DNA of 64,000 bases from a phage. A model generated the notes under the pieces. It made no database searches and was not told the DNA's origin. It saw only the letters and a list, made by a program, of their open reading frames with translations. A program made the position numbers and the translations under genes. Numbering within the stretch: the first letter of the stretch is position 1; each line of letters starts with the position of its first letter. The stretch lies in assembly GCA_025812035.1 (NCBI GenBank), contig GCA_025812035.1_4719.1. One strand, written 5' to 3'. Below, piece by piece: positions 3,016 through 51,122 of the stretch.

Positions 3016-3070
3016 CACCTCATCCCTTTCCTTGCATCCTCCCAACCCGTAAAGGGAAGGGAGGATGAGG
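3016..3070. terminator. bidirectional hairpin terminator (GTAA-capped family, copy 1)
   Basis: CATCCTCCC-AA-CCC-GTAAA-GGG-AA-GGGAGGATG between convergent genes. Confidence 0.5.
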
Positions 3071-16333: not shown

Positions 16334-16385
16334 GTCTGACCTATGTGGTATGGATGACAACGCTTTGCCTTCCGCGAGTGTAATC

Positions 16386-16416
16386 AGGAAGGTAATGTAG
16401 GTTTATTTTAATCTCC
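16386..16416 (-). promoter_or_regulatory. variant early-promoter-like motif, copy D
   Basis: AGGAAGGTAATGTAGGTTTATTTTAATCTCC in divergent intergenic region. Confidence 0.25.
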
Positions 16417-22320: not shown

Positions 22321-24915
22321 TCACTCACCTTTGATTGTGTAAAACTTCGTGAAGTCCACGCGATCTTTCAAGAACTCACGACTGACACGTTCTAAGAACC
22401 GCAGTTGTTTAACCGTAACTTCGAGCGGCGTCCAACTGTCATGTGGATGAATAGAAACCATCCGCCAATCGTAATTACGTAACGCGGGATCGTAGTCATA
22501 GAACCATTTATACGGCTCCATGAAATCCATCAGCTTAACGTCCTGCATATCAGGATCAGGGTCGATAACACCGTTGATAAGATCGTACGTTACCGCCATC
22601 AGCGTTGGACTGATAAGCTGATATTTGTTTTCAATCGTTACCGGCGTATCATACTTCACACGAGGGAAATACAAGGACATATAGTCTTCAACACGTTTAT
22701 CGGTTTCAAGACTCTTGTCGCGTAGATAATAGGTGTCCGTGTTCACGAGACCGCGGATAGGAGCAATAACACGGTAAATCGCATAAGGCACCCCATCGTT
22801 GACTTTGATGTCGGCAGGGTATTGCGTATCCTCTGCGGTAACCACTTCGCTACGATCGTAAATACGTCCACCAACCACAATACGAACAACATGATCGTCA
22901 CGAACATTGAACACGTCATCGTAAGAAAGCTGGCCATGCATCGTCCAACCGGTATCGTAAACAGGTTCGGTGGTTAAGTCTGTGCGTGGGAAACCCGTAC
23001 ATCTCACGGTAACCGTGTGCGTGTTCCCTTCACTGAAATAACGTTTCGCATTGATCACGATCGTTGGCCATTTTACGATATAATCGATATCGCGTACCAA
23101 GCTGTAGCTTTTGGTTGCTTTCCCGTCACCTAACCATACTTCGATTTGACCCGGTTCGAAAGGTAACGGATATTCAACATCGATGCCCGTAGTAACATCC
23201 AACCACACGGTGTGATTACGATGTTGTATCGTGGTCTTATACGCTAAGAAGTAGGTATCGAACAATACGAGACCGGTTTTCTTGCGCCCGTCTAACGCCC
23301 ATTTTATTACCCCGTTCTCTTCCGTTACCACAGAAGCATCGTCGGTAACATCCTTCCATGTGCTTGCAACAGGTTGTCCGTTACGAAGGTTTACGCTGTA
23401 GCAGCGGTAGCTCGCCCATTCGCGGATTGGAACGTCGGCAACACCCATCACGTAATCAAGCGTTCTTCCACCAACACCAGACCGACCCTCAACGTAGGAC
23501 GTTGTTTTATACTGCGGGTAAAAATGTCGACCTGCCGGATGTTGTGTGATACCCAATAATAGACCGTTATTATCGTACTCGAAGAACGTCGCGTTTGCAC
23601 GCAAGCCCCACGGTACTTCAGCGGCAGGCGTACCTATTTCGTCGGTAACACGTTGTGGACTATCTGCAACCAGTTTCGCCATCGCGTTATACCCGTAAGC
23701 GGAGGTCACCATGTCGATTGTGATGTTGCTTTCCTTATTACGCATGATACGCGTATAATCACTGGCTTCAAGCGTACGCGCAAAGAACTCGGGTATGTTA
23801 GCGTTCTGTTCCAGCATCGCGCCGATGATGACGTCGTCTGGAAGTTTATACAGTTCGTGGATACGATTATGTTCGAAGGTTAAACGCGTTTTCAAACCGC
23901 TATCGCGGACAACCACTTCCAGGGTTAAATCACGAAGCGATTCTGCACCATCAATTCGTTCAACGAAGTAGCTGACATAATCAACAGGAATCCCGTAATC
24001 ACGATGCGTGAGCATGCGGATACTATTTTCCTGGTTGGTATGGTAATAACGCCCTTTTCCATTAGGGCCTTTCACGTAGATGTCGACGTCATCACGATAC
24101 TGGATCTTAGTATCCGTTTCATCTTTCGGTGGATGAATAAGATACTTCACTTTTTTGTCCAGATCGCTGTTGTACGTTTTAAGATCTTCTACACGGAAGC
24201 TGTAACGATGAACAACCGTACCATCATAGACGACCTGAATACTATCGCCGATCTTAAAACTTGACGGTGGAATATCTTCAACCGCTTCACCATTGATGCT
24301 ACAGTGCGTCCAACCGATCCCGGTTTCCTGGATTTTTTTACGCCAAGCGTATAACTGACGCTGCCATTGTAGAACCTGCGTTGAACTGGTGACAATCCCA
24401 CCAAGGACATGCACCTCACGTCCCGTCGGTTTCGTAAATGCTGGGTACCCTTCCGCGAAGTCGGCATTGAGATAGGTGCGCCAGTAATAATCACCAACGC
24501 CGAGGTCGGCGATATTCGGTTGGTCCAACACACAGACCAACATCGTTTCATTTTCCAGATTACCCGTCCACGTTAATGTCAGCGGGAATTCTTTACCGTC
24601 CTCAGTGTAGATGTTGTAATACGATCCCTTCACTTCACAGAACTTGCTGAGTTCCCGCCACCACAACCGACCCGCCCCGACATTAAAATCCTCTCCCATG
24701 TGTCGTCCAATAACAAACACATGGAACGTATTCGTATCGTCAGGAAGATTGAATGTACGATGCCAAGCCGTAAAGTTTTTTACTGCGCCGGTCTTTCCGG
24801 TAATACGACGCATCTTAATACGATGCTGGTTGTCCATTAATGGACGGCAGTTCACGTTCAGCGCAGCATGATTTATCAAGTATTGCGCTGTAGGATTAGA
24901 AGCGTTCAACACCAC
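22321..24915 (-). CDS. large hypothetical protein (possible portal/structural)
   Basis: 864-aa ORF; GTG start with GGAGG RBS; upstream of terL operon. Confidence 0.5.
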   Translation of the reverse strand: MVLNASNPTAQYLINHAALNVNCRPLMDNQHRIKMRRITGKTGAVKNFTAWHRTFNLPDDTNTFHVFVIGRHMGEDFNVGAGRLWWRELSKFCEVKGSYYNIYTEDGKEFPLTLTWTGNLENETMLVCVLDQPNIADLGVGDYYWRTYLNADFAEGYPAFTKPTGREVHVLGGIVTSSTQVLQWQRQLYAWRKKIQETGIGWTHCSINGEAVEDIPPSSFKIGDSIQVVYDGTVVHRYSFRVEDLKTYNSDLDKKVKYLIHPPKDETDTKIQYRDDVDIYVKGPNGKGRYYHTNQENSIRMLTHRDYGIPVDYVSYFVERIDGAESLRDLTLEVVVRDSGLKTRLTFEHNRIHELYKLPDDVIIGAMLEQNANIPEFFARTLEASDYTRIMRNKESNITIDMVTSAYGYNAMAKLVADSPQRVTDEIGTPAAEVPWGLRANATFFEYDNNGLLLGITQHPAGRHFYPQYKTTSYVEGRSGVGGRTLDYVMGVADVPIREWASYRCYSVNLRNGQPVASTWKDVTDDASVVTEENGVIKWALDGRKKTGLVLFDTYFLAYKTTIQHRNHTVWLDVTTGIDVEYPLPFEPGQIEVWLGDGKATKSYSLVRDIDYIVKWPTIVINAKRYFSEGNTHTVTVRCTGFPRTDLTTEPVYDTGWTMHGQLSYDDVFNVRDDHVVRIVVGGRIYDRSEVVTAEDTQYPADIKVNDGVPYAIYRVIAPIRGLVNTDTYYLRDKSLETDKRVEDYMSLYFPRVKYDTPVTIENKYQLISPTLMAVTYDLINGVIDPDPDMQDVKLMDFMEPYKWFYDYDPALRNYDWRMVSIHPHDSWTPLEVTVKQLRFLERVSREFLKDRVDFTKFYTIKGE

Positions 24916-25843
24916 GGCATGCCTCCAGGAGGTATTTCATGTTGGCTTGGAAGTCATTAACGTCACGCGCCATACGACGCTGATCCGCCATGAGACGAGC
25001 CAACACGGTATCACGATAACCACGGTCGTGGTCGGCAGCAGAGCATAAAAGAATAAATGTTGGTGGGTGCTCTAAAGCAATCCCAGCAACTTCTTTACTG
25101 TACCCCCCAACCCAACTGTACGCGGTGATTTCAAACAACAGCGCTTGGGTTAACGTATTCAAACGGGGACTAATATTACTTTCTTTTAGCGCGGTTACAA
25201 AAGCCGCCATGTTAGGGATATAACCCAGGTTTTCGGTTACGATACCGATGCTTGCAAAATCGTAACGAAGCGTTGTCTGGATGGTGCGCACCATAGTTAG
25301 TCTTTCATTATTTGTAAGGCTATCTTTAAACAAGCAAAGATAATACCATGCTGTTATGATGGCAACATCACGACGTTGTTGAAGGTCCAGTCCTAGACGC
25401 TGTGTAATTTGTCCGCTAATCCAATCACAAAAGACACGCATCGGGATAGGGCCAAGACGTTCAAAAGGACGTGTGCCCAAGGATTCCCATCCTACCTGAA
25501 GATACGCACGTGATTGAAGAAAGTTATATTCACGTTCGTTAACAACGGTAGTACGCGATCCTGGGCGTGAGGTGTCTGTTGGAGTGCGTGCGTAAGCACG
25601 TTGGTCAACAACAACGCGCTGTCCATCCATCACCGTTTTAATGACCAACGGATGGCCAAAAGAAGGGATATCGTCCAGCGTATTTTTGTTGCCGATAACT
25701 TCGAGAACGGGGGTGTTTACAGCACTTTCTTCACCTGGTGCACTTAACAATCCGCCGACGTAAGCAATTTCGACAGCGGTTCGGATACGGTCAATGCCTT
25801 TCAGTTTTGTTCCAACAGTTGTGTCGTAAGGAGAGATGAACAT
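24896..25843 (-). CDS. hypothetical protein
   Basis: 315 aa, AAAGGAA RBS; TATGCCGT motif ~20 nt upstream. Confidence 0.5.
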   Translation of the reverse strand: MFISPYDTTVGTKLKGIDRIRTAVEIAYVGGLLSAPGEESAVNTPVLEVIGNKNTLDDIPSFGHPLVIKTVMDGQRVVVDQRAYARTPTDTSRPGSRTTVVNEREYNFLQSRAYLQVGWESLGTRPFERLGPIPMRVFCDWISGQITQRLGLDLQQRRDVAIITAWYYLCLFKDSLTNNERLTMVRTIQTTLRYDFASIGIVTENLGYIPNMAAFVTALKESNISPRLNTLTQALLFEITAYSWVGGYSKEVAGIALEHPPTFILLCSAADHDRGYRDTVLARLMADQRRMARDVNDFQANMKYLLEACRGVERF

Positions 25844-25859
25844 ATGTAATTCCTTTATT

Positions 25860-25867
25860 ACGGCATA
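25860..25867 (-). promoter_or_regulatory. TATGCCGT element without adjacent hairpin
   Basis: Minus-sense TATATGCCGTAATAAAGGAATTAC-ATG upstream of gene 24896-25843. Confidence 0.3.
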
Positions 25868-25925
25868 TAAGAAAACGGGTTAAGCACACAGATTTACGCA
25901 TAATTGTAATTTTTTACGTTATGCC

Positions 25926-25959
25926 TATGACATTGTGTCACGTGTGCAATTATGTCATA
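25926..25959 (+). promoter_or_regulatory. inverted repeat TATGACAT-N18-ATGTCATA centred on CACGTG
   Basis: 30-60 nt upstream of sheath-candidate start; candidate late promoter or operator. Confidence 0.3.
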
Positions 25960-25986
25960 CAATTTCCTTAAATTAAGGAGAGTTCC

Positions 25987-28059
25987 ATGAGGCTTAAGAA
26001 TAGCACGCCTCGCGCGATTTTTACGGGCTTTAAAGAGGGTCTTACCACGGATCCGGTTACAGCCCCAGAGATCACGCCCATTCACCTCCCGTATGTTTTC
26101 ATTCAGGGTGGTCGTGGTAAAGAGGACACCTTGCTGTTAACAGGGGACGCCCTGTCTACAGTCTACGGTGAAGATATGCTGAACTACCGCAGTAAGTACG
26201 CTTCTCCGGCAACATTGATTGCTCGTCAAGCTGCTTCTACGGGTAGCGCAATCTTCACAAAACGTTTGGTTGCACCGGATGCGACAGCTGCACGTATTCG
26301 TATCGGTGTTGAAATCGTTGCCGATAAACTGGTCGTTTACCAGCGTAACGTTGACGGGTCTTTCAAAAAGGACACCGCCGGTAACAAAATCCCCGACGGC
26401 GATAAAACCGTTGATGGGTTGAAACTGCGTTGGGTTGTTAACCACGACAAAGATGCCGAAACACCGAATGTTTTCGGTAAGGATGAAGTGGTTATTGGCC
26501 AACTGACGGCAACTGACGGTACCCAGAGTAACTACTATCCTATTCTGGATGGGTTAGTGAGCTGGCGCGGTGCTGACGGGGATAACATCGGCGTGCGTTT
26601 GGAAGCACCGACCGCGCTGAGCAGTAACCCTACCCGTACCGATATTATCGAACGCATCGGTGCTTTCCTGTACCGCATTCAGTTCGTGGAACGCAAGTCT
26701 TCACGTACTGCGCCGACAGTCATTCGTACAATCAGCGGTATGGAACAAGAAACCTTCGCACTGCAGGAAGGTGTTATCCAACCTGATGATGAAACCGATC
26801 TGTCCTTCGGTAAAGTGGTCGTTGACGCCTACGAGTATAATGAGACGGGTAACACCCCGATCTTTGCTCCGATGGATCAGATGCATCTTTATCAGAAGAA
26901 CATCGACGAAATCGTCAAGAAGCTGTACGAATCTGAAAGCAAAGTTAACAACGATCTGTTAACCGACGTTGAATTCGTCGAAGGACAGATGAACATCTTC
27001 ACCGGTGTTGATTACAACGGTATTCCGTATCAAACCATCGAAGTTCTCGATGCGGATCAGGGCGGCGCTATCTTCGATGGTACCAGCACCTTTTACGCAA
27101 TCGATGGTAGTGATGGCGACGTAAGCTGGGATACCTTCGATGCGTTAGCGAAGCAGCAGTTCGAATCGTTCGGCAACATGGGCGAAGATCTGGAAGACAT
27201 GGCTTTCTATCCGTTCTCCATCGTGTATGACATTGGTTACAAAGTCGACACGAAGAAAGCGATGGCGAATGTCTTGTCTCTGCGTCCTGACGTCATGATT
27301 ATTGCATCAACCCACACCTGGAAGGGCGTGGAGCTGAACGTCGACGAAGAAAGCTCCATGGGTGCAATGCTGCGTAACTACTACCGTCTGCATCCAGAAA
27401 GCGTGCTTTACAATACCCCAGCCTGTCGTGCTGCTGTGTTTATGCAATATGGCGAAAGCATCGAAGCGCCAAGCCTGGGTAAAGTTCCGCTGACGCTGGA
27501 AGTTGCTAATAAACTTGCAACGTACATGGGTGCTTCAGATGGTGTTATCCGCGGTACCCGCATCGATAACAACCCTGGTAACGTTGTCACAACGATGCGT
27601 AAAATCAACAAGACGTATCGTAACGCAACGGTCCGCGATCGTGATTGGGAAAACGGCTTGAACTATGTTCAGACCTATAACCGTAATTCCAACTTCTTCC
27701 CGGCTTGGGGCACGATTTACAATAACGACCGTTCGGTATGGCGTTCGTTGATCAACGTGATCATCGGTTGCGATCTGACTCGTGTCTGCTATCGTCTCTG
27801 GGCAGAAACCACCGGTACCACAGGAATGGACGAGTCGCTGTTCCTGAAACTGATGGGCGAACGCTTCCTGGAATACACCACGGGTCGTTACAACGACCAT
27901 GTGACTGTTAAGGGACGTTTCTACCTGGATAAAGAAGACGGTTATAATGGCTTCAGCTATCATGGTGATATCAGCCTGATCGGTGATCCGGGTATGACCG
28001 TGGGTACGTTTACCATCACCGGGCTGCGTCGTAACACCGAAGCAGCAGAAGCGGCGTAA
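25987..28059 (+). CDS. putative tail sheath protein (alternative: another major structural protein)
   Basis: 690 aa, preferred-codon bias, AAGGAGAG RBS; followed by tube-sized gene and strong terminator; phiKZ gp29-like size. Function by context only. Confidence 0.4.
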   Translation: MRLKNSTPRAIFTGFKEGLTTDPVTAPEITPIHLPYVFIQGGRGKEDTLLLTGDALSTVYGEDMLNYRSKYASPATLIARQAASTGSAIFTKRLVAPDATAARIRIGVEIVADKLVVYQRNVDGSFKKDTAGNKIPDGDKTVDGLKLRWVVNHDKDAETPNVFGKDEVVIGQLTATDGTQSNYYPILDGLVSWRGADGDNIGVRLEAPTALSSNPTRTDIIERIGAFLYRIQFVERKSSRTAPTVIRTISGMEQETFALQEGVIQPDDETDLSFGKVVVDAYEYNETGNTPIFAPMDQMHLYQKNIDEIVKKLYESESKVNNDLLTDVEFVEGQMNIFTGVDYNGIPYQTIEVLDADQGGAIFDGTSTFYAIDGSDGDVSWDTFDALAKQQFESFGNMGEDLEDMAFYPFSIVYDIGYKVDTKKAMANVLSLRPDVMIIASTHTWKGVELNVDEESSMGAMLRNYYRLHPESVLYNTPACRAAVFMQYGESIEAPSLGKVPLTLEVANKLATYMGASDGVIRGTRIDNNPGNVVTTMRKINKTYRNATVRDRDWENGLNYVQTYNRNSNFFPAWGTIYNNDRSVWRSLINVIIGCDLTRVCYRLWAETTGTTGMDESLFLKLMGERFLEYTTGRYNDHVTVKGRFYLDKEDGYNGFSYHGDISLIGDPGMTVGTFTITGLRRNTEAAEAA

Positions 28060-28074
28060 TGAGAGGAGTCCATA

Positions 28075-28965
28075 ATGCGTCCTGATAATACCCTACTCGG
28101 TGAACAGGGTGTTGGTGCTCTTAGCAACGCGGCTATGGTCGATATTCGTGCGGGTGCCCAAAACGGGTACATCAGCAATATCGGTACGTACGTTGCTAAC
28201 GCCAACTACATTCCGAACCAAATGTTCTGTCTCCTGCTGGAGGCACCACGTGGTTTCAACTATCTACCTAACCCGGATGTACAGATTGGTTATCTGAAGG
28301 CGTTGGTAGAAGAGGTTGCGCATTCGATTACCGGTCTGCAACGCGGATTGGAAGTTGAATTCGTTAGCGTCCCGGTTTCTGGTTCCGGTGAAATCCAGGA
28401 AGAAGTCTCTGACGTTAAACGTCCTCGCTCTAACCCGACTTTCGGGATCTATGAGAAAGAAGGTCGTTCCGTTAGCTACTTCCTGGAACAATGGATCACG
28501 TATCTGTTGATGGACCCGGATGCTAAATATCCGATGCTGTCGTCTATCGTATCCACCGGTGGTCCGACCGACCTGCTGGCGGATTATCGTAGCGCAACAA
28601 TGCTGTTCGTTGAACCAGACCGTCAACACAAGAAAGTGGTTAACGCCTGGTTGTGTACGAACATGATGCCTCACGGTACCGGCGACTGGACATCACGTCG
28701 TAACAAGAACGATGCACCAAACGTGGTAGAATTGAGCATTCAGTTCACTGCGCTAACACAGACCAACTACGGCGTGCGTGCTTTTGCGCAGCGTCTGTTG
28801 GACAAGATGAATCTGCTTAAAGTAAACCCGGATTTCCGTCCGGCTTATCTGAGCGACATCGATCCCGCTGTGGCAGCGCAGAAGGTTGGCTACACCTTCG
28901 ACTTTGATAACAGCGATACCTTCGAGGTACCGAACGCTTATCAAAACGTAACACCTCGCGTGTAA
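28075..28965 (+). CDS. putative tail tube protein
   Basis: 296 aa, GAGAGGAG RBS, immediately downstream of sheath candidate; function by context only. Confidence 0.35.
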   Translation: MRPDNTLLGEQGVGALSNAAMVDIRAGAQNGYISNIGTYVANANYIPNQMFCLLLEAPRGFNYLPNPDVQIGYLKALVEEVAHSITGLQRGLEVEFVSVPVSGSGEIQEEVSDVKRPRSNPTFGIYEKEGRSVSYFLEQWITYLLMDPDAKYPMLSSIVSTGGPTDLLADYRSATMLFVEPDRQHKKVVNAWLCTNMMPHGTGDWTSRRNKNDAPNVVELSIQFTALTQTNYGVRAFAQRLLDKMNLLKVNPDFRPAYLSDIDPAVAAQKVGYTFDFDNSDTFEVPNAYQNVTPRV

Positions 28966-28988
28966 CGTAAAAAAAAAAGCATAGTAAC

Positions 28989-29041
28989 TCCCTCCTTCCC
29001 TAGCCATCAAGGCCGGGGAAGGAGGGTTTATAGTTTATTTA
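28989..29041 (+). terminator. strong rho-independent terminator after tube-candidate gene
   Basis: Stem CCCTCCTTCCC/GGGAAGGAGGG, then TTTATAGTTTATTTA; preceded by A10 run 28969-28978. Confidence 0.6.
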
Positions 29042-29578
29042 CTGTTTGTTCTTAGCTTCACGGATGAAAATGACGTCGGGATATTCTTGGGATTCAATGA
29101 ATTCAGGATTACGATAACGACGAATATGACGCATCGTCGTACATGCAAGTTTATAAAGATGTTCCTCCTCACGTTGTGTTAGTAACATCAATTGTGTATC
29201 TGGAATCACGAACGGGAGTCTTTCATTCACGTATTCTTGAAGGTTGTCGAGATCATCGTGATGAATACCCTCTGAGAGCTTATATAACGCTTCCAGCAAT
29301 TCTAATCCACCGAATTGATAACTTCCTATTGTTGTCTTAAACAATGCGCCAGAACGCGTGGTGGATGCTCTATCGGCAACATCGTATTGTTCCAACATAT
29401 ATCCGTAGACCATGCTGCGTCTATCCAACGTTTCCGTAACGAGATTACGCCACCGTTCCAGTCTTTTGAGCGCCTTGTCGATAGAGTAAACGATCATGTC
29501 ATACTCATCCAACTCTTCCGCGATACCCAATAGCTCGGTGTTGTTAGGTTTTGCTGCGCCGATAAGAAAAACACTCAT
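29039..29578 (-). CDS. hypothetical protein
   Basis: 179 aa, AAGGAG RBS, TAATG overlap with upstream gene. Confidence 0.5.
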   Translation of the reverse strand: MSVFLIGAAKPNNTELLGIAEELDEYDMIVYSIDKALKRLERWRNLVTETLDRRSMVYGYMLEQYDVADRASTTRSGALFKTTIGSYQFGGLELLEALYKLSEGIHHDDLDNLQEYVNERLPFVIPDTQLMLLTQREEEHLYKLACTTMRHIRRYRNPEFIESQEYPDVIFIREAKNKQ

Positions 29579-30095: not shown

Positions 30096-30575
30096 TCAGT
30101 CTTTCAGCAGCTCAGCTGCATACGCACTGATATTGTCGCGGATATGCTTAACCTGAGTTGTTGGGAAAGATTTCTTATACGCGGTGGTCAGACGTCCGTA
30201 AACCTGTTTCTTCTCGTTAGAGCCGAAACCAACTTCAGCGCTACGTTGAATTGTTGCAGACACAACGTCTTTACCCAGCGGCAGTGTAACAGAAACAACG
30301 TCAACCTGCTTGTTATCCGCCATGAACTGCGCACCAACGCGACCAACTGCCAGGCCGTGAGCCAGACCGATATCAGTGGTCAGCTTCTGCGCTTTTTCCA
30401 GGATTTCTTTTTCTTCCGGTGTTACCAGAGTACCCAGGAAATCACTGCCTAACTTCTGGCTACCGGATTCGTCCAGTTTGATACCAGCTGCGATTTTATC
30501 AGAAAGCGCCTGAACTTCCGGACGTACGTTAGAAGTGGTTTCAGTTGCTACGGTGGTTTCTACAGCTTCAGACAT
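30096..30575 (-). CDS. acidic hypothetical protein (likely early, abundant)
   Basis: 159 aa, TGGAGT RBS, preferred-codon bias; early-promoter-like motif copy B ~120 nt upstream. Confidence 0.55.
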   Translation of the reverse strand: MSEAVETTVATETTSNVRPEVQALSDKIAAGIKLDESGSQKLGSDFLGTLVTPEEKEILEKAQKLTTDIGLAHGLAVGRVGAQFMADNKQVDVVSVTLPLGKDVVSATIQRSAEVGFGSNEKKQVYGRLTTAYKKSFPTTQVKHIRDNISAYAAELLKD

Positions 30576-30694
30576 GTTAATACTCCAATTAGTTTTTTCG
30601 ATCGATCAAAAGGATAAAATCAGAAGATTCTTTCTTCATAGGGAAAACACAAGTCGGTTAAGGTTTACTTCTCAAACTCCTTGCGTTCTATCAG

Positions 30695-30730
30695 TTAGGT
30701 AATATAGACCTCAACTTTTTTCCAATAATG
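30695..30730 (-). promoter_or_regulatory. early-promoter-like motif, copy B
   Basis: TTAGGTAATATAGACCTCAACTTTTTTCCAATAATGC; lies between two minus genes, which fixes the functional strand as minus. Confidence 0.4.
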
Positions 30731-35978: not shown

Positions 35979-38900
35979 TTATTTAGCGTCGTTAAAATAA
36001 ATATCAACAGCTCGTTCCGTTGCGTAGAGGAGACCAAGGTTCACAGTCCCAACCACTTCCGGCGAAGCGATGATACGGTTAGCGATACTGGTGCCACTGA
36101 AGATAGCATCAAGGGTGTGCCCGTCTTCGGTTTTGTTCACACCATGACCCACGGAAGAGACAACGGATTTCGCTTGTGCTGCGAAGGTACCCTTATCACC
36201 CATCCCCGCACCAAGGTCGTAACGCATGAAAATACGGATGGCGATCTGGTTCTCGCCTAACGGATTACCGTCTATTCTCACGTTACTGTTGTTGATACGC
36301 CCCGTCGTTGCTTCATTGAGTTTCAGTTCCTTGACGCGTTTAGCTCGCGCTTTATCCGCATCGCCGACGAGCGCCGCCATGGTTTCACTCATATCCTCAA
36401 TCTGAGCGCGGTACAGCACATCGATCTGTACAACTTCACCATGAACGTCAGCACGTGGGTTATACTGACTCATACGACGTAATGCTTCAACAGCTTCCTG
36501 ACTCTCATCACTCAGATCGGTTGCGATCGGTTCTTCCAGTGTTGCAAGAATCGTTCGAGGTTCAACATGATCGCCGATTTTTACGAGACCACGAATGTTG
36601 AGATGGGCGTCAACAATGAGCGTACGGCTCTTAATCGATGGTGTTACGAGACGATCGGCAAGATTGTCGAAGATATACGAACTGTCCTCGTGCGTCTCTG
36701 GAATATCCAGAATACCGACAAGAGACAGGACGCCTGCGCGCCAAACAACCTGACCTGGGTTCCACCAATCGCGTTTAAAATAAAGACGATGGAAAACCAC
36801 CACGTCCTGATCCTTAACGCGATCCCCAACTTTATAATCGGTAATGAGGTCGTGAGGATAATACTTACCTGGTCCTTTCCCGATTATCGTACCGAGTTGG
36901 AAAACCTCTTCTCCTAACTCTGGATCGTCGTATTGTACCGTAAGCGCAGTTTTGGTGACCTTCTTAACAACACCATCGCCTTGGGCAGCTGCGGCGAAGA
37001 GTTTACCGACACGATGCGCGATAACAGTCTCGCCACCCGTACGCCATGGTTGTACATCGTAACCTTCAGCAGCAATCATGCGGTTGTGTTGGATCCCGAC
37101 GAAGACCAGACGTTTTCCATCGTCACGGTCTACAGCCGGAACAGCTAACGCCGATGTACTCATTACCGATGAGATGCCGTCTGTCTTTTCATCGAATGGT
37201 CGTGTTTCACCATATACAGACACGATATTAGCATTAGGTGCCAGATAGGCAGAAATACCTACATCCCCGCTATCCTTCGTACCTTCTGATACAATACCGA
37301 CATCTGACTTATCGTATTCACGATCGCGTGCGCGGCGAAGCGATGTCTTTGAGCGACCCCCGATACCGGTCATCGTTGCTTCTTCACCCTGCTTGATATC
37401 CAGCATCGGGTTGGTTTCATCGATCACGATGGACGCGCTGTCGTCGAGAATTTGGTTCCAGACACTCACTGGACTGATTGAGATTTTCTGTCGGTTTCCT
37501 TGACTGCTGTTCTCGTTTTGACGAATAGCACCAACCAGGTCCTTATACACCAGCTCAGCGAACTTATCGTACGTTTTAAAACGTTGGTAGTTCACATCGT
37601 TCGTGTTAGGTGCCCAATCATCCAGAAGCAGTTCAACAGCACGCAGCAACAACATGGCGAAATCGGTAGGTTCTCCCATGTTCTGTAATAGCGTACGGCT
37701 TACCGGATCGACGAAAAGACGCTCCATGAGTTCAAGTTCGCGTAAATGGCGAACCTTAAGTCCAGCACCATCGACAACGTTAAAATAGATATCTCGATTG
37801 TCAAAAGCACCGCGAGCGTAACCGATGTAGTTACGGTATTCGTTAAACCCACCCATCAACAACGTCGTCATGCGATCGTCTTTACTGAAGATCAAACTTT
37901 CGTCGTCGAAGCTCACCGCGAACTCGTCTGATGCTAAACCCATACGAGAGCCACGAGGAACAGTACGATAATTCGCTTTAAGATGTTCTAATAACGGGGT
38001 AAGCCCACCCAGATAACTTAGAACAACGCCAACCGGAATACGTACGCCCATGAATTCAAGATCGGCAGCTTCGATTGGCATCTTAGCCGCATTGATGCCG
38101 AAGAAATCAGGGAACGTCCCTACAGGTGTTGGTGTTTGTCCTGACTGACAGATATAGAGCTGGTTGCGTTCATCGATCGCTAAGAATTCGCCCGACGTAT
38201 TACGCGCGAACGTCAGGAGTCCTTCGGCTAACTGTTCGTTGAACCGATCTTCCCCAATGAACTCCGGTAACGTTTTTATATCGAGACGTATATCCCAATC
38301 AGCGAATTGGATTTGGGTATAATTGCGCGCAAGCACGGCGAAGTAATACGGGACTTTGACAGCCGGATCAAAGACGTTACCACGTTTTAACGTTGTTAAG
38401 GGCGAGGACTTATCGTAATACATCGCCGTAAGTTGACGTGTTAGCCAACGACCAGCGTTATTAACGACGCGCTCTGAACGTTTAACGAACACCTTACCGT
38501 AGGCGGTACTCAACGCAACTTCGGATGACGATACCTTTCTAATAGGTTTATCAACGCGCTGTTTACGCATCCGGTACTTGATACCGTTAACAACATAAAT
38601 GCCATCCTTACGAACCTTCGGCAACATCACCGGGAACGTGGTTGGGACACCGCCTACAGGAGCCAGTTTAATCGTGATGACTTGATAATCCCCCATCACG
38701 TCAACAACATCTTCAACTTTATATCCCGTAACAGGGTAACCTGCTTGCTGTACCGCAACAACGGCAGCTGCGATGTCCTTTTGCATTACATGTTCAACGT
38801 AATGTTTATCCCACACCGCGAGCGTTGATTTACATAAGCTCTTATCAACGATAACATCCGCTTCCGGCATAACCTTTGCGGGAGCTAGTTTCGCGGCTTT

Positions 38901-40325
38901 TGGTTTAACTTCAACATATTCAGCGAGCGTTAATCCAGAACCGTCAGGTGCTTCGATTTCGTGGATGGCGTCAGCATTACGCATCGCTGCTTTATATTGG
39001 ACGCCACTTAACTGACCTGCATCCGCCAGATCGCTCGCACGCACCAACACCGCATCCGATAACGACTGAATATACTCACCATGTGTTTTTGGTAACGTTG
39101 CTGCGTCAAAGACATCAACCTTTTCTTCGGCGGTATCGTCGGGGACGACTTCGAAGAGATCGTCGGTAATGTCCTGATCTTCATCAGGTTGGAAATCCGG
39201 TTGTACTTCTACCCCAGGTACTTCACGAACATCTTCAAACGTGCGCTCTACGATTGCGTTCCACGCATCAGCATCATCGTCTTCATCCGACCCACCGACC
39301 AACTCCGCTTCTAACTCATCGGGGTCAAGAACAGTGGCCAGATCCTCACCGTTAGGAAGCACGACATCGCGATCATCGTACTCCGCATCCGGGCTGTCCG
39401 CAAGAATATCTCGCTCTTGACGAAGAACCTGTTCCTCTTCTTGTTTCTGTTCTTCTTCATTCGCGCTCTGCGACCACAGACGTGTTACCGCCATCATCCA
39501 ACGACGCTGGAAGGTTTCAAGTGTCGTTTTATCGAGTTCTTCCCCTTCCTTTACGAGCCCGGTACGCCATTCCTCCAGCAGACCGAGATTCAGCGTAAAG
39601 AAGTACACACCGTCTGTAAATACAACGTTAAGCTTATCCAGCGTGGCTCTGTCTAACGAAGCCATCGTGCTGTTCTCACGATCGGTTCCCAACCAGCGGA
39701 AGAAGTCAAAGAACGACAGCTCCTCCGGTGTGGCGAAATTCATGAGGTTGTTACGGGTCGGTGCCTGTTGCGTGGTACGCATCAACGAAATCTTCGGCAA
39801 TGTTGACGGTATACGGAACAACAAAAAGTGTTGACGATCGCTTTGCTGGGCGATTTCGTTGGCTTTCGACCAAATTGTTTTACGTACGTTGAACCACTCA
39901 TCGTACCAACGGGTGAGCGTTGGACGATAGATGTACATGTGGTTAAGATGCGCGTAGTTAGCAACGATCTGCGCGTTGATGTTTTTCTCCACCGTGCTTA
40001 GATCGGTAACCAAACGAAAACGACGATGTGATGCACGATAATCCAATTTCGCTCGTGGAAGTTGGAATCGTTGATCGCGTCGAGGTGCGCCCTGTTTGGT
40101 TGCGAGATCATCAGCAAACGAAATCCATAGTTGAGCATTTTCTTTACTCAGCATGTATTCGTTTTCTGGAGGACCTATCAATGATGGATCCGTTGCGGTG
40201 TAATGATAGACAGCATAACGCGGCAGCTGCAATAGCTGCACTAAACGTAATCTCGGTGACAATAGCTCTTGGTATCGTCTGACGCCAAACTGTCGGTAGT
40301 AATCAAGGTATTTAAGTTTTGCCAT
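35979..40325 (-). CDS. multisubunit RNA polymerase beta-like subunit
   Basis: 1448 aa; GIGGRSKTSLRRARDRE...VGIVSEGTKDSGDVGIS resembles RpoB GPGGLTRERAGFEVRD...ETPEGPNIGL; GDKGTF...EDGHTLD resembles RpoB GDKMAGRHGNKG region. Confidence 0.6.
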   Translation of the reverse strand: MAKLKYLDYYRQFGVRRYQELLSPRLRLVQLLQLPRYAVYHYTATDPSLIGPPENEYMLSKENAQLWISFADDLATKQGAPRRDQRFQLPRAKLDYRASHRRFRLVTDLSTVEKNINAQIVANYAHLNHMYIYRPTLTRWYDEWFNVRKTIWSKANEIAQQSDRQHFLLFRIPSTLPKISLMRTTQQAPTRNNLMNFATPEELSFFDFFRWLGTDRENSTMASLDRATLDKLNVVFTDGVYFFTLNLGLLEEWRTGLVKEGEELDKTTLETFQRRWMMAVTRLWSQSANEEEQKQEEEQVLRQERDILADSPDAEYDDRDVVLPNGEDLATVLDPDELEAELVGGSDEDDDADAWNAIVERTFEDVREVPGVEVQPDFQPDEDQDITDDLFEVVPDDTAEEKVDVFDAATLPKTHGEYIQSLSDAVLVRASDLADAGQLSGVQYKAAMRNADAIHEIEAPDGSGLTLAEYVEVKPKAAKLAPAKVMPEADVIVDKSLCKSTLAVWDKHYVEHVMQKDIAAAVVAVQQAGYPVTGYKVEDVVDVMGDYQVITIKLAPVGGVPTTFPVMLPKVRKDGIYVVNGIKYRMRKQRVDKPIRKVSSSEVALSTAYGKVFVKRSERVVNNAGRWLTRQLTAMYYDKSSPLTTLKRGNVFDPAVKVPYYFAVLARNYTQIQFADWDIRLDIKTLPEFIGEDRFNEQLAEGLLTFARNTSGEFLAIDERNQLYICQSGQTPTPVGTFPDFFGINAAKMPIEAADLEFMGVRIPVGVVLSYLGGLTPLLEHLKANYRTVPRGSRMGLASDEFAVSFDDESLIFSKDDRMTTLLMGGFNEYRNYIGYARGAFDNRDIYFNVVDGAGLKVRHLRELELMERLFVDPVSRTLLQNMGEPTDFAMLLLRAVELLLDDWAPNTNDVNYQRFKTYDKFAELVYKDLVGAIRQNENSSQGNRQKISISPVSVWNQILDDSASIVIDETNPMLDIKQGEEATMTGIGGRSKTSLRRARDREYDKSDVGIVSEGTKDSGDVGISAYLAPNANIVSVYGETRPFDEKTDGISSVMSTSALAVPAVDRDDGKRLVFVGIQHNRMIAAEGYDVQPWRTGGETVIAHRVGKLFAAAAQGDGVVKKVTKTALTVQYDDPELGEEVFQLGTIIGKGPGKYYPHDLITDYKVGDRVKDQDVVVFHRLYFKRDWWNPGQVVWRAGVLSLVGILDIPETHEDSSYIFDNLADRLVTPSIKSRTLIVDAHLNIRGLVKIGDHVEPRTILATLEEPIATDLSDESQEAVEALRRMSQYNPRADVHGEVVQIDVLYRAQIEDMSETMAALVGDADKARAKRVKELKLNEATTGRINNSNVRIDGNPLGENQIAIRIFMRYDLGAGMGDKGTFAAQAKSVVSSVGHGVNKTEDGHTLDAIFSGTSIANRIIASPEVVGTVNLGLLYATERAVDIYFNDAK

Positions 40326-40328
40326 GGG

Positions 40329-41975
40329 TTAGGCTCCACGAGGTCCCGTTAAGTTGCGTAATAGGAACGCAACCGTATCGTAACCAATATCGATGTTGAA
40401 TTTATTTTTACCACTTACCCAGAAAGCACGTTTCTTGTGCGAGTTGGTAATTTCGTCAATGGCTTCCATGGAATAAAGAACGTTAACCGAGACCGTATCG
40501 CCATCAAAGTCCCCACCAAGTCCGGCGAGGTACGGGGCTGGAACAATAGTCGTTTCTACGAACGAAGCATTAGGTAACCAATCTGGGTATTCCCATGCGA
40601 TAAATCGCTCATCCGTTATTGGTTCCCAGTTACTATCCAGTTCGGTTTTCGGTTTTGCTGCAACGGTCGTACGCGCATAACAGGTTAACGGAATGACGGA
40701 TTGCATACCCGATACCGGATAACGTGTTACCATCGCTGCCAGGTTATTCCAGTATTTATATCCAGCAATATAGATAAGCTCAGTATACGTAATGGGGTGA
40801 ACATCCGCCCCGGGTTTGTTAAGCATCTCTGGGGGTAATTCACTCATACCACGGAATAACCGAAACGAATCATTATTCACATAGACCAGGCAGAGATAAC
40901 GTCCATTGACCATGATAGGTTCGTTACGCACACCTGGATCGCTTAAGGTGTTCAGTAAACGTTCTATCCCATCCCATGTTGTAAAGTCATCGATGGTGTC
41001 TGGATCAAGCGTGACGCGTTCACGTTCCATCGTTTCGGTATCAATAAGTTCAACTTCTGTAACATCACGGACAAATATTTCCTGCAAAATCCCCGTACGT
41101 AACGCATGTTGCGTTACTGGGAGAGCAGCTTTACTCATCTGGTATAACCCTAACTGAACTGCAGTACAGGAAGGCTGGTTAGGCGACCCTAGTACCTCCG
41201 TTGTGGGGTTAATTGCTGAAATAACGTTACGGGTTGAGTTCCAAACACGACGTGAGCCGAACTTACCTTGGAAGATCCCTTTCTTACCTTGGAACATATC
41301 CAACAACAAAGCGTAGATGTCGTTAAATGTTCTCTGTAAGCTCCAGCGCTGACCGTCGTAAACGGGATCCGAATAATCTTTTAATCCATCCGGGACGGTG
41401 TTAGAAATTGCCAGGAAACGACGATACAACTCTGTGATTTCTTGCTCGCTTTCATACCCGCCTTCTTTTACTTCTATTTCACGTAAACCCGCAGGTAAAA
41501 CCAGTAGATGACGAGTCATCGCTTTGAACATGTTCTCTTCGACAACCTTGATTCGTAGCTCTCGTTGAGCTGAACCCGTTGAAACGAACTTGATATCAGC
41601 GACGTGTTGTGCAAAGAACCCGTATCCTGTTTGTCCTGTTAGCGCATCGGACGCAACGAAGTCACGTTGTTCAGGATCCCAACGCGCGTACGCCTTCCCC
41701 GACATGATATCACCGTAGAGGTGTTTTAGTCGAATGAGACGATCGTAGATGACAGGGTGTAGGATTTCAACTTTGCATTCAATCACCGCAAATCGACGGT
41801 CTCGATCTTCGCTACCCGCACTACCAAAGATGGTGTATGAATAGAAACCGTCATCGTGGAAATTACCGGTGCTTGGATCACGAATGCTCATGCTCGTGAT
41901 CTTGGGGAGAAAACGTAACTGCTGTTTATCGAGGTGTAAAATGCTAATATTAAACGGCTCTCTGACTTTAGCCAT
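40329..41975 (-). CDS. multisubunit RNA polymerase beta-prime-like N-terminal subunit
   Basis: Start trimmed to ATG 41975 (AAAGAGGAG RBS); RRFAVIECKVEILHPVIY resembles beta-prime RMGHIELAAPVAHIWF; GKFGSRRV...NVISAIN resembles [27 protein letters not shown] catalytic motif near C-terminus. Confidence 0.65.
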   Translation of the reverse strand: MAKVREPFNISILHLDKQQLRFLPKITSMSIRDPSTGNFHDDGFYSYTIFGSAGSEDRDRRFAVIECKVEILHPVIYDRLIRLKHLYGDIMSGKAYARWDPEQRDFVASDALTGQTGYGFFAQHVADIKFVSTGSAQRELRIKVVEENMFKAMTRHLLVLPAGLREIEVKEGGYESEQEITELYRRFLAISNTVPDGLKDYSDPVYDGQRWSLQRTFNDIYALLLDMFQGKKGIFQGKFGSRRVWNSTRNVISAINPTTEVLGSPNQPSCTAVQLGLYQMSKAALPVTQHALRTGILQEIFVRDVTEVELIDTETMERERVTLDPDTIDDFTTWDGIERLLNTLSDPGVRNEPIMVNGRYLCLVYVNNDSFRLFRGMSELPPEMLNKPGADVHPITYTELIYIAGYKYWNNLAAMVTRYPVSGMQSVIPLTCYARTTVAAKPKTELDSNWEPITDERFIAWEYPDWLPNASFVETTIVPAPYLAGLGGDFDGDTVSVNVLYSMEAIDEITNSHKKRAFWVSGKNKFNIDIGYDTVAFLLRNLTGPRGA

Positions 41976-42217
41976 GGAGACACTCCTCTTTACCACCACC
42001 GGCGGCGGTATCATCTGAACACACGAGAGACGTAATGGGTGATGGCGTCACCCATCGCTTCCTTGCTTGAGGCGAGGAAGTTATTAGGTTACGTACCTGT
42101 TTGATAAAATCAAACAGGCGATGTGTGAAGTTACGCTTCAACATTATCAATGCCGAAGGTAAACTTCGTGCATCACGTTCCAACGTAACATGGGAACGTA
42201 TCGAACTGGAGGTATAC

Positions 42218-51089: not shown

Positions 51090-51122
51090 CCCCTCTCCCA
51101 ACCCGTAAGGGAAGGGAGAGGG
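51090..51122. terminator. bidirectional hairpin terminator (GTAA-capped family, copy 2)
   Basis: CCCTCTCCC-AA-CCC-GTAA-GGG-AA-GGGAGAGGG between convergent genes. Confidence 0.5.

What the first reader, a model, noticed from the sequence alone, without database searches (positions are those of the whole stretch)
25926..29041. Sheath/tube-like gene pair framed by a palindromic upstream element, an A10 run and a strong terminator
Two codon-biased genes (690 and 296 aa) are preceded by TATGACAT-N18-ATGTCATA centred on CACGTG and followed by A10 (28969-28978) and an 11-bp GC hairpin with U-tract. Functions are assigned by size and context only. The A10 run is a potential polymerase-slippage site.
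Basis: inference. Interest (0 to 1): 0.45.

Follow-up and report, generated by a model that had tools for sequence, protein, structure and literature searches.

The report
Goslar-type tail sheath–tube operon
These two genes are the already-solved tail sheath and tail tube proteins of a close relative of E. coli jumbo phage Goslar; the gene pair is ordinary, apart from an unusually conserved 84-base leader in front of it and a terminator typical of this phage family behind it.

Summary
The window is about 95% identical to Escherichia phage Goslar (Chimalliviridae). The 690-aa protein is the tail sheath (97.5% identical to Goslar gp218). The 296-aa protein is the tail tube (99.3% identical to gp217). 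Both have been built into cryo-EM maps of the Goslar tail, so their function is known.

The palindrome TATGACAT-N18-ATGTCATA is exact, but on its own it is not beyond chance (P about 0.11). It lies inside an 84-nt leader (25904-25986) that is 89% identical in a relative whose sheath gene is only 72% identical. This leader is the only highly conserved non-coding stretch in 21 kb. It most likely holds the phage-polymerase promoter and the 5' UTR; the start site is unmapped.

The hairpin at 28990-29026 is real. It shows compensatory stem changes, has paralogous copies in the genome, and fits the published phiKZ-type terminator (GC-rich hairpin followed by TTAT).

The A10 run lies after the stop codon and varies from A7 to A12 among relatives. 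Read on the other strand, it is a T-run 11 nt after the hairpin. That layout occurs at 10 of 41 minus-direction terminators in Goslar. It is not a programmed slippage site.

Overall this is a known system with low novelty.

The parts
24896..25843 (-). Divergently transcribed neighbour, the homologue of Goslar gp219 (PhiKZ_VTX-type virion protein)
   Evidence: ORF list; Goslar annotation; Pfam PF25614 on the orthologue in L016
25857..25867 (-). TATGCCGTAAT box 21 nt upstream of the gp219 start codon. Conserved in the 9 Goslar-like genomes but not in the 75% relative
25904..25986 (+). Strongly conserved leader block, presumed to be the promoter plus 5' UTR of the sheath-tube operon
   Evidence: 79/89 aligned columns identical (89%) to L016, against 72% for the sheath CDS and 42% for the rest of the intergenic region. 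It is the only non-coding stretch with at least 90% identity in 40-nt windows across 21 kb. There is no second copy in the genome
25913..25917 (+). TTTAC box. Together with CGTGTGC 23 nt downstream it is shared with the major-capsid-gene leader
25926..25933 (+). Left arm TATGACAT (contains TATG on the + strand). Invariant in all three lineages
25939..25947 (+). CACGTG plus the overlapping CGTGTGC. CACGTG itself is not a recurrent intergenic motif
25952..25959 (+). Right arm ATGTCATA (TATGTCATA is itself a 9-bp palindrome; it reads TATGACAT on the - strand). A25952 is G in the 75% relative, leaving a 7-bp inverted repeat, or a U.G pair if the element acts as RNA
25965..25980 (+). Small hairpin TCCTTAA-A-TTAAGGA that contains the ribosome-binding site AAGGAG (25975-25980). 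Only the central base 25972 varies among relatives
25987..28059 (+). Tail sheath gene (690 aa), the homologue of Goslar gp218 and phiKZ gp29
28075..28965 (+). Tail tube gene (296 aa), the homologue of Goslar gp217 and phiKZ gp30
28969..28978 (+). A10 run in the 3' untranslated region. It is a T10 on the minus strand, 11 nt after the hairpin. Its length varies among relatives
28980..28983 (-). TATG on the minus strand, 7 nt after the hairpin (part of the reverse-direction terminator signature)
28990..29026 (.). Terminator hairpin (11-bp outer stem, 3-bp inner stem) serving both converging transcription units
29027..29041 (+). T-rich tail TTTATAGTTTATTTA (TTTATGG in 7 of 9 relatives). Its last three bases are the stop codon of the converging gene
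29039..29578 (-). Converging gene, the homologue of Goslar gp216 (function unknown)

Best explanation
This is the tail sheath-tail tube operon of a Goslar-like nucleus-forming jumbo phage (Chimalliviridae). The two genes are read as one message.

Upstream: the message starts somewhere inside a strongly conserved 84-nt leader (25904-25986). This leader most likely combines the promoter for the phage's own non-virion RNA polymerase with a short structured 5' UTR that ends in a strong ribosome-binding site. The 'palindrome' is part of this leader. Its two arms are two copies of the nearly self-complementary word TATGWCAT, and they place the tetranucleotide TATG (the start-site motif of phiKZ late promoters) on both strands of a divergent promoter region. 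The exact start site is not known. Candidates are G25929 (the TATG rule) or about 25937-25940 (a TTAC box at -24, as in phiKZ middle promoters).

Downstream: the message ends at a hairpin of the type conserved in this phage family, a pyrimidine-run/purine-run stem followed by TTAT. The hairpin sits between converging genes and works in both directions.

A10 run: it is not a coding or slippage signal. On the opposite strand it is the T-run that follows the hairpin and a TATG by about 11 nt, an arrangement repeated at other minus-strand terminators of this phage. Its length drifts by replication slippage.

Shown versus inferred: shown are the gene identities, the conservation, the hairpin covariation and the family signature. 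Inferred are promoter use, the start site, the role of the arms and termination by the phage polymerase.
For: Identity: 95.4% nucleotide identity to Goslar. The sheath is identical at 673/690 residues and the tube at 294/296. Pfam PF20961 scores 191 bits and PF23806 scores 376 bits. PDB chains 11ei, 36za and 11ec match at E = 0 to 2.5e-201, and phiKZ gp29/gp30 (9xpf) at 3.5e-79 and 3e-45. The cryo-EM and mass-spectrometry assignment is in bioRxiv 10.64898/2026.04.21.720040. Both genes are among the three most codon-biased of 49.

Leader: 89% identical to the 75%-aa relative L016, against 72-74% for the flanking coding sequence and 42% for the distal intergenic region. It is the only non-coding segment of at least 90% identity in a 21-kb comparison, where other intergenic regions are 15-50% identical. 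The left arm and the minus-strand TATGAC of the right arm are kept in all three lineages, while the nearby TTATGCC is lost in one clade. TATGWC is 2.8-fold enriched in Goslar intergenic DNA, and 8 of 16 gene-oriented upstream copies lie 30-49 nt before a start codon. The sheath intergenic region has 6 TATG, the most of 25 divergent regions (P = 0.0175). In phiKZ, TATG with G = +1 is required by the non-virion polymerase (PMC4666361, PMC12809450). phiKZ has the same gp28|gp29-gp30 layout with three tandem TATG upstream. TTTAC-N23/24-CGTGTRC is shared with the capsid-gene leader and kept in both lineages.

Terminator: z = -5.8. Three stem variants carry compensating changes. Paralogous copies occur after gp13 and at 84366. 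In Goslar, 37 of 61 hairpin tails in the direction of transcription carry TATG within 8 nt, against 4 of 29 other tails and a 4.8% background. This matches the published phiKZ motif ...GGGRRGGBYTTATKYYGT (PMC10914365).

A-run: lengths are 7, 8, 10, 12 or interrupted in relatives, and A6 versus A8 in the 75% clade. T-runs of at least 6 start 8-14 nt after 10 of 41 minus-direction hairpins and after 0 of 20 plus-direction ones.
Against: There are no transcript-end data for Goslar or any close relative, so the promoter, start site and termination are inferred by analogy with phiKZ and 201phi2-1.

TATG is not generally enriched in Goslar's 25 divergent intergenic regions (31 observed, 31.4 expected). 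It shows no significant strand bias in tandem intergenic regions (50 versus 40). Many structural genes have no TATG upstream. The TATG in the capsid-gene leader is not conserved.

The + strand TATGTC in the right arm is lost in the 75% relative. The inverted repeat alone is within chance (P = 0.11). The TTTAC...GTGTRC pattern is not enriched in the window as a whole (2 observed, 1.46 expected).

In the window the + strand tail reads TTTATAG, which departs from the family motif (K = G/T). The T10 is 11 nt from the stem, too far for a textbook intrinsic terminator.
Confidence: 0.75

Rival explanations
1. The inverted repeat is an operator: a dimeric phage DNA-binding protein binds the two arms and switches the sheath-tube promoter (and perhaps the divergent gp219 promoter) on or off during infection.
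For: The 8-bp arms are exact and are kept as at least 7 bp in three lineages. The site lies in a divergent promoter region. The surrounding DNA is under strong constraint.
Against: The spacer is conserved as well as the arms, which is not expected for a two-half-site operator. The arm centres are 26 bp apart (2.5 helical turns), so they face opposite sides of the helix. The motif occurs nowhere else as a pair, and the 34-mer is unique even with 3 mismatches allowed. The leader has no paralogue. An inverted repeat of this size is expected by chance in 11% of such regions.
Confidence: 0.12
2. The element works as RNA. The arms pair to form a stem-loop at or near the 5' end of the sheath-tube mRNA, followed by a second small hairpin over the ribosome-binding site. 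Together these would control mRNA stability, translation, or handling of this very abundant message.
For: RNAalifold predicts exactly these two hairpins. The two substitutions that fall on predicted pairs in the 75% relative keep pairing (U-A to U.G; U.G to U-A). The only variable base of the second hairpin is in its loop. If transcription starts at G25929, the stem begins at the first nucleotide of the RNA.
Against: The folding energy of the region is not unusual (z = -1.35; 21 of 200 shuffles fold as well). No pair shows a change on both sides. With only three lineages, the two compatible transitions could be chance. If the start site is near 25937, the left arm is not transcribed at all. 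There is no Rfam match.
Confidence: 0.2
3. The A10 run is a programmed slippage site: transcriptional or translational slippage would produce an extended or alternative tube protein.
For: Homopolymer runs of 9 or more A are known slippage sites in other systems. This is the only A10 in the window.
Against: The run starts 3 nt after the TAA stop codon, so neither ribosome nor polymerase slippage can change the protein. The run length is 7-12 or interrupted by C in close relatives. Equivalent A/T runs sit next to other terminator hairpins, including junctions with no plus-strand gene. The solved Goslar tube chain is the 296-aa product.
Confidence: 0.02
4. The operon is read by host RNA polymerase from a sigma-70-type promoter (GTGTCA-17-TACAAT, 25935-25963) that overlaps the palindrome.
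For: The scan finds a 9-of-12 match there. The -35-like hexamer is conserved, and the -10-like hexamer keeps A2 and T6 in the 75% relative.
Against: Such matches are fewer than chance in this region (2 found, 7.1 expected). In phiKZ-type phages transcription is rifampicin-resistant and is carried out by two phage polymerases on DNA enclosed in a vesicle and then a protein nucleus (PMC4666361, PMC12809450). Goslar encodes both polymerase sets.
Confidence: 0.04

Closest known systems
Escherichia phage vB_EcoM_Goslar gp218 (tail sheath) and gp217 (tail tube); PDB 11ei, 11ec, 36za; bioRxiv 10.64898/2026.04.21.720040
   Same: 97.5% and 99.3% protein identity. Same neighbours (gp219 divergent, gp216 convergent). 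The leader is identical except for 1 nt. The terminator hairpin is in the same place.
   Different: A different strain. A10 here versus A12 in Goslar. One compensated base pair differs in the stem. The base after TTTAT is A here and G in Goslar. The loop base is A here and G in Goslar.
Pseudomonas phage phiKZ gp29 / gp30 (PDB 9xpf, 3j0h, 3spe)
   Same: Same protein families (PF20961, PF23806). Same gene order, gp28 (minus) | gp29-gp30 (plus). TATG repeats upstream, and a hairpin plus TTTATG after the block.
   Different: Only about 30% protein identity. phiKZ has an extra small ORF (gp30.1) before the terminator. The leaders cannot be aligned.
Conserved intrinsic terminator motif of phiKZ and 201phi2-1 (5'-BCCYCCCCHWWDGGGRRGGBYTTATKYYGT-3'; PMC10914365, PMC11512511)
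   Same: A pyrimidine-run/purine-run GC-rich stem directly followed by TTAT. It is used many times per genome. Some copies are bidirectional.
   Different: This copy has a longer stem (11 bp) and a 15-nt structured loop. The window reads TTTATAG rather than TTATK. The reverse direction has a 7-nt spacer before TATG and then a T10 run.
phiKZ non-virion RNA polymerase promoters (late: TATG with G = +1; middle: AAanTTACc centred at -24; PMC4666361, PMC12809450)
   Same: TATG boxes 36-67 nt upstream of the start codon. There is a TTAC box whose -24 rule would place the start between the arms.
   Different: No start sites have been mapped in Goslar-like phages. TATG is not generally enriched at Goslar gene starts. 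Such a long, highly conserved leader is not described for phiKZ promoters.
Bacterial bidirectional Rho-independent terminators (A-tract, hairpin, U-tract)
   Same: An A-rich tract upstream, a GC-rich hairpin and a T-rich tract downstream, all placed between converging genes.
   Different: The A-run is 11 nt from the stem rather than adjacent and does not pair with the T-rich tail. The polymerase is presumably the phage enzyme.

Membership tests
phiKZ-type contractile tail sheath (Pfam PF20961 gp29PR-containing; PHROG 3242) | Significant match to the family profile above the curated cut-off | tested here: met
   PF20961 scores 191 bits against a cut-off of 26, E = 2.9e-56. phrog_3242 'tail sheath' matches at E = 1.5e-189 over residues 4-685.
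phiKZ-type contractile tail sheath (Pfam PF20961 gp29PR-containing; PHROG 3242) | Full-length homology to a protein shown by structure to form the sheath | tested here: met
   PDB 11ei/36za (Goslar sheath) at E = 0 over residues 1-690. phiKZ gp29 (9xpf) at E = 3.5e-79 over residues 4-686. 673 of 690 residues identical to Goslar gp218.
phiKZ-type contractile tail sheath (Pfam PF20961 gp29PR-containing; PHROG 3242) | Protein present in virions of this very phage | not testable with these tools
   Shown by mass spectrometry only for Goslar itself.
Phage tail tube protein family Phage_TTP_14 (PF23806) | Profile match above the cut-off, and homology to a structurally assigned tube protein | tested here: met
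   PF23806 scores 376.5 bits against a cut-off of 27. PDB 11ec 'Tail Tube of Bacteriophage Goslar' at E = 2.5e-201. phiKZ gp30 at E = 3e-45. 294 of 296 residues identical to gp217.
Chimalliviridae conserved terminator (phiKZ motif) | GC-rich stem made of a pyrimidine run and a purine run, more stable than chance | tested here: met
   CCCTCCTTCCC/GGGAAGGAGGG, -32.7 kcal/mol, z = -5.8. Compensatory changes in relatives.
Chimalliviridae conserved terminator (phiKZ motif) | TTAT directly after the stem, followed by K (G/T) YYGT | tested here: inconclusive
   TTTAT is present. The next base is A in the window and L010, and G in 7 of 9 relatives. YYGT is not matched (GTTT).
Chimalliviridae conserved terminator (phiKZ motif) | Transcript 3' ends map at the motif | not testable with these tools
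   No Goslar transcript-end data were found.
phiKZ late promoter (TATG, G = +1) | TATG upstream of the gene, kept in relatives | tested here: met
   TATG at 25926-25929 is invariant in three lineages. TATG at 25920 and at 25951 are each lost in one lineage.
phiKZ late promoter (TATG, G = +1) | Motif associated with gene starts across this genome | tested here: not met
   No enrichment in 25 divergent intergenic regions (31 observed, 31.4 expected). Sense versus antisense counts are 50 versus 40, not significant. Absent upstream of many structural genes.
phiKZ late promoter (TATG, G = +1) | Transcription starts at the G | not testable with these tools
   Needs 5'-end mapping or in vitro transcription.
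Programmed slippage site | Homopolymer lies inside a coding sequence, with an alternative frame to enter | tested here: not met
   The run starts 3 nt after the stop codon, and no ORF continues through it.
Programmed slippage site | Run length conserved among relatives | tested here: not met
   A7, A8, A10, A12 and A3CA6.
Operator for a dimeric regulator | Inverted repeat beyond chance and recurring at co-regulated promoters | tested here: not met
   P = 0.11 by shuffling. The repeat is unique in the window and in Goslar. The spacer is conserved as well as the arms.

The most novel reading that the evidence does not exclude
Two linked readings remain open.

(1) In Goslar-like phages the TATG word is also the 3' half of the terminator. 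In phiKZ the non-virion polymerase binds TATG in a pocket of its beta-like subunit to start late transcripts. Here TATG follows the hairpin within 8 nt on whichever strand is transcribed, and on both sides at 9 of 17 convergent junctions. This suggests the promoter-recognition pocket is reused as a pause signal that lets the hairpin release the transcript.

(2) The 84-nt sheath leader, with two opposed TATGAC boxes, is the most conserved non-coding sequence of the region. It could be a dedicated control element for the most abundant tail message, for example a promoter-proximal pause or a signal for mRNA stability, export or translation, rather than a plain promoter.
Probability: 0.2. Interest if true: 0.6.

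Novelty: already known. Interest (0 to 1): 0.22.

Why it matters
The gene pair adds nothing new, because the Goslar sheath and tube are already solved at 3.2-3.4 Å.

The modest value lies in the non-coding parts. First, the leader in front of the sheath gene is more conserved than any protein-coding gene around it. That makes it the best candidate in this phage group for mapping a strong promoter of the phage's own polymerase, whose recognition rules are still poorly understood even in phiKZ. Second, the 'hairpin plus TATG' terminator signature extends from Pseudomonas phages to an E. coli phage. It is directional, which gives a testable link between promoter recognition and termination by this unusual polymerase. 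Both elements would also be useful parts for engineering Goslar-type phages.

Tried and rejected
- **TTATGCC (25919-25925) as the sheath promoter.** Rejected. TATGCCG is enriched in intergenic DNA, but it turned out to be the tail of terminator hairpins. The copy here is TAATGCC in one clade.
- **TATG as a general Goslar promoter mark.** Not supported genome-wide.
- **CACGTG or GACGTC as recurrent motifs.** CACGTG occurs once in intergenic DNA against 3.3 expected. GACGTC is not enriched.
- **Rfam search of 25700-29200 at E ≤ 1.** No hit.
- **Sigma-70 promoter and classical terminator scan.** Promoter-like sites are fewer than chance. The hairpin was not flagged because its loop exceeds the scanner's limit.
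- **Small ORF in the leader.** None on the plus strand. The 32-aa ORF called in the 75% relative is not conserved.
- **Second copies of the leader.** None in the window or in Goslar.
- **RNA stability of the palindrome.** Not significant (z = -1.35 and -0.10).
- **Published phiKZ start-site tables.** The supplements are not held. The Goslar RNA-binding-protein paper has no start-site data.
- **Bipartite TTTAC-N14-28-GTGTRC pattern.** Intergenic bias in Goslar (4 of 6, P = 2.5e-4), but total counts are at chance level. Kept only as a lead.
- **Structure prediction.** Not run, because solved structures of near-identical proteins exist.


Full report
**What the window is.** The 3.3 kb around the finding is 95.4% identical, end to end, to Escherichia phage vB_EcoM_Goslar (NC_048170, 197035-200339). 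No other deposited phage matches at the DNA level. Goslar is a nucleus-forming jumbo phage (Chimalliviridae). Its record calls the two genes gp218 'tail sheath' and gp217 'virion structural protein'. They are flanked by gp219 (divergent) and gp216 (convergent). The window shows the same arrangement.

**Checking the observation.** The ORFs are at 25987-28059 (690 aa) and 28075-28965 (296 aa).
- The inverted repeat TATGACAT (25926-25933) / ATGTCATA (25952-25959) is exact, with 18 nt between the arms.
- CACGTG (25939-25944) is one base off the centre.
- A10 is at 28969-28978 and is the only such run in the window.
- The hairpin has an 11-bp outer stem (28990-29000 / 29016-29026) and a 3-bp inner stem. 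It folds at -32.7 kcal/mol with z = -5.8.
- The 'U-tract' is TTTATAGTTTATTTA, so it is interrupted.
- Codon bias is real. The tube and sheath genes rank 2nd and 3rd of 49 window genes by effective number of codons (Nc 42.3 and 43.4), with E. coli-type preferred codons.

On chance: an 8-nt inverted repeat with a 3-40 nt spacer turns up in 11% of shuffles of the 143-nt intergenic region. An A10 turns up in 31% of shuffles of the window. Those two features are therefore not significant on their own. The hairpin is.

**The proteins.**
- The 690-aa protein matches Pfam PF20961 (phiKZ gp29PR) at 191 bits against a cut-off of 26, and PHROG 3242 'tail sheath' over its whole length.
- The 296-aa protein matches PF23806 (Phage_TTP_14, tail tube) at 376 bits.
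- Against solved structures, the sheath matches Goslar chains 11ei/36za at E = 0, phiKZ gp29 (9xpf) at 3.5e-79 and another jumbo-phage sheath (8au1). The tube matches 'Tail Tube of Bacteriophage Goslar' (11ec) at 2.5e-201 and phiKZ gp30 at 3e-45.
- Identity to Goslar is 673/690 for the sheath and 294/296 for the tube.
- The Goslar virion paper (bioRxiv 10.64898/2026.04.21.720040) builds gp218 and gp217 into 3.4 Å and 3.2 Å maps. It counts 47 sheath and 46 tube layers and detects both proteins by mass spectrometry.

The proposed refutation, a hit to capsid or chimallin families, did not occur. The chimallin gene is in fact at window 1-1665 on the minus strand.

**The upstream element.** I collected nine Goslar-like genomes from IMG/VR and metagenomes. 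I then obtained a more distant lineage with 75% sheath protein identity, seen in three samples, and a 21-kb stretch of that lineage.
- Among the nine close genomes there are two clades. The intergenic region differs between them at nine places, none of which falls in 25921-25971.
- In the distant lineage, sheath, tube and gp219 coding DNA is 72%, 74% and 60% identical to the window. The gp219-proximal part of the intergenic region (25844-25902) is 42% identical. The sheath-proximal 84 nt (about 25903-25986) is 89% identical, 79 of 89 aligned columns.
- Across 21 kb, only 16 stretches reach 90% identity in 40-nt windows. Fifteen lie inside the tubulin, terminase, gp221 and sheath genes. The sixteenth is the sheath leader (25898-25971), which is also the longest.
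- All other intergenic regions are 15-50% identical.
- The leader has no second copy in the genome, no Rfam match and no plus-strand ORF.

The palindrome therefore sits inside a strongly constrained, unique non-coding block, and the spacer is conserved as well as the arms.

**What the arms may be.** Each arm is a copy of the nearly self-complementary word TATGWCAT. TATGTCATA is itself a 9-bp palindrome. The 'inverted repeat' can thus be read equally as two direct copies 25 nt apart.
- In phiKZ the non-virion polymerase needs TATG, starts at the G, and holds these four bases of the non-template strand in a pocket of its beta-like subunit (PMC4666361, PMC12809450).
- In the window there are three plus-strand TATGs (25920, 25926, 25951) and three minus-strand ones. 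This is the highest count among the 25 divergent intergenic regions of Goslar (P = 0.0175 against shuffles).
- Conservation separates them. TATG at 25920 is AATG in one clade. TATG at 25951 is TGTG in the distant lineage. The left-arm TATGAC and the minus-strand TATGAC of the right arm are kept everywhere.
- TATGWC is 2.8-fold enriched in Goslar intergenic DNA, and half of the gene-oriented upstream copies lie 30-49 nt before a start codon.
- phiKZ itself has three tandem TATGs upstream of its sheath gene.

Against a simple 'TATG promoter' reading:
- TATG is not enriched overall in divergent intergenic regions.
- It shows no significant strand bias.
- It is missing upstream of many structural genes.
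- It is not conserved in the capsid-gene leader.

A second lead comes from the sheath and capsid leaders. They share TTTAC, then 23-24 nt, then CGTGT(A/G)C, and this is kept in both lineages of both genes. The pattern is intergenic in 4 of its 6 genome copies. It recalls the phiKZ middle-promoter TTAC box at -24 and would put the start near 25937-25940, between the arms. Its total count is at chance level, so it remains a lead.

An RNA reading is also possible. RNAalifold pairs the arms and finds a second hairpin over the ribosome-binding site. The few substitutions are compatible with this (U-A to U.G, U.G to U-A, one loop change). But there are no double compensations, and the folding energy is ordinary.

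My conclusion is that the leader is a promoter plus 5' UTR for a very highly expressed operon. The arms are part of it. Which base starts the RNA cannot be decided without transcript mapping.

**The terminator.** In the nine close genomes the stem occurs in three versions whose differences are compensated: CCCTCC.../...GGAGGG, CCTTCC.../...GGAAGG and TCCTCC.../...GGAGGA.
- Goslar carries two more copies of the same hairpin core. One is after gp13 with the same TTATAGTTTATTTA tail. The other is at 84366 in the opposite orientation.
- More generally, Goslar intergenic regions are full of pyrimidine-run/purine-run hairpins.
- In 37 of 61 hairpin tails that point in the direction of transcription, TATG follows within 8 nt. 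This compares with 4 of 29 other tails and 4.8% at random intergenic positions (Fisher P = 3e-5).
- At 9 of 17 convergent junctions TATG is present on both sides.
- This is the same signature as the published phiKZ terminator motif, hairpin + TTATKYYGT (61 copies; PMC10914365), which is also seen in 201phi2-1.

The tube-gene hairpin fits this. The plus-strand tail is TTTATGG in seven relatives and TTTATAG in the window. The minus-strand tail carries TATG 7-8 nt after the stem. In the distant lineage the junction has two separate hairpins, one per direction, each followed by TTATGC. The element is therefore a bidirectional terminator of the family type, placed between the tube gene and the converging gp216 gene, whose stop codon lies 12 nt from the stem.

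**The A10 run.** It starts 3 nt after the tube stop codon, so slippage there cannot alter a protein.
- Its length is 7, 8, 10 (five genomes), 12, or interrupted (A3CA6) among close relatives. It is A6 versus A8 at the equivalent place in the distant lineage.
- In Goslar, runs of eight or more A or T are rare. Six of the ten lie next to terminator hairpins.
- T-runs of at least 6 begin 8-14 nt after 10 of 41 minus-direction hairpins and after none of 20 plus-direction ones. This includes junctions with no plus-strand gene.

The most economical reading is that the run belongs to the minus-strand terminator (hairpin, TATG, T-run) and drifts in length by replication slippage. It is too far from the stem to be a textbook U-tract, so its exact role is inferred.

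**Comparison with what is known, and novelty.** The gene pair is a strain-level variant of Goslar gp218/gp217 and a member of the phiKZ gp29/gp30 families. The terminator belongs to the described Chimalliviridae type. Two points are not in the papers I could read. One is the exceptional conservation of the sheath leader. The other is the strict directionality of 'hairpin + TATG', including its presence on both sides at convergent junctions. These are modest extensions of known things. The most novel reading still open is that the polymerase's TATG pocket serves termination as well as initiation, and that the leader is a dedicated control element. I give that about 0.2.

**Verdict.** The finding is real and is correctly interpreted as sheath plus tube, but it is already known. 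The palindrome is part of a conserved leader rather than a stand-alone operator, the terminator is typical of the family, and the slippage idea is not supported. Interest is low (0.22).

Noticed in passing
window 28990-29026; loci L003, L013, L014 (about 5995-6035): The 15-nt loop of the terminator hairpin is reverse-complemented in one clade of relatives. The A/G loop polymorphism occurs in both orientations. This suggests repeated flip-flop inversion, or gene conversion with the oppositely oriented paralogous copy in Goslar (84366-84396).
   Followed up: partly
window 3035-3067, 51091-51122, 63955-63986; at least 10 sites in Goslar (L005-L009): There is a repeated terminator hairpin family, CCCTCYYCC-AACCCGTAAGGGAAGG-RRGAGGG, mostly at convergent gene junctions and usually with TATG on both flanks.
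   Followed up: partly
Goslar genome (L005-L009), 45 intergenic hairpins: TATG lies within 8 nt after the hairpin in 37 of 61 tails in the direction of transcription, against 4 of 29 other tails. Nine of 17 convergent hairpins have it on both sides. T-runs of at least 6 follow only minus-direction hairpins (10 of 41, against 0 of 20).
   Followed up: yes
window 1730-1745, 16384-16399, 30691-30706, 53388-53403 (all minus strand): Boxes of the form TAYATTACCTnnnTGA, preceded by a T/A-rich stretch, resemble the phiKZ early-promoter consensus TATATTAC. The first lies upstream of the chimallin (nuclear shell) gene, which occupies window 1-1665 on the minus strand and runs off the window.
   Followed up: partly
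window 35979-40325 and 40329-42014 (minus strand): The two virion RNA polymerase beta-like genes abut here. In Goslar they are separated by a group I intron and an HNH endonuclease gene (gp206, about 2.2 kb). The window phage therefore lacks that mobile insertion.
   Followed up: no
window 30096-30575 (minus strand): This 159-aa gene, the homologue of Goslar gp214 (function unknown), has the strongest codon bias of 49 window genes (Nc 36.6; CTG is 86% of Leu codons). This hints at very high expression.
   Followed up: no
Goslar 45662-45810 (L005) and L022 2869-3000: The major-capsid-gene leader also has a proximal block of about 100 nt conserved in a 71% relative. It shares TTTAC-N23/24-CGTGTRC with the sheath leader, but its TATG is not conserved.
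   Followed up: partly
window 1660-1919: The chimallin/gp245 divergent region holds a second pair of facing TATG boxes (GGATATGTC ... CATATCC in Goslar) and a 12-bp palindrome, AATGACGTCATT, in the chimallin 5' region. A second AATGACGTCATT lies in another Goslar intergenic region (142862).
   Followed up: no
protein hits: Sheath proteins 97-100% identical to this one sit on 235-247 kb contigs filed under E. coli, Salmonella and Shigella assemblies. Goslar-like phage genomes are therefore common passengers in enterobacterial sequencing projects.
   Followed up: no
window 25910-25921 and 28963-28974: A 12-nt word, TTTTTTACGTTA, in the leader recurs on the minus strand right after the tube stop codon, overlapping the A-run. 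BLAST E is about 0.2-0.8, so it is probably chance.
   Followed up: no
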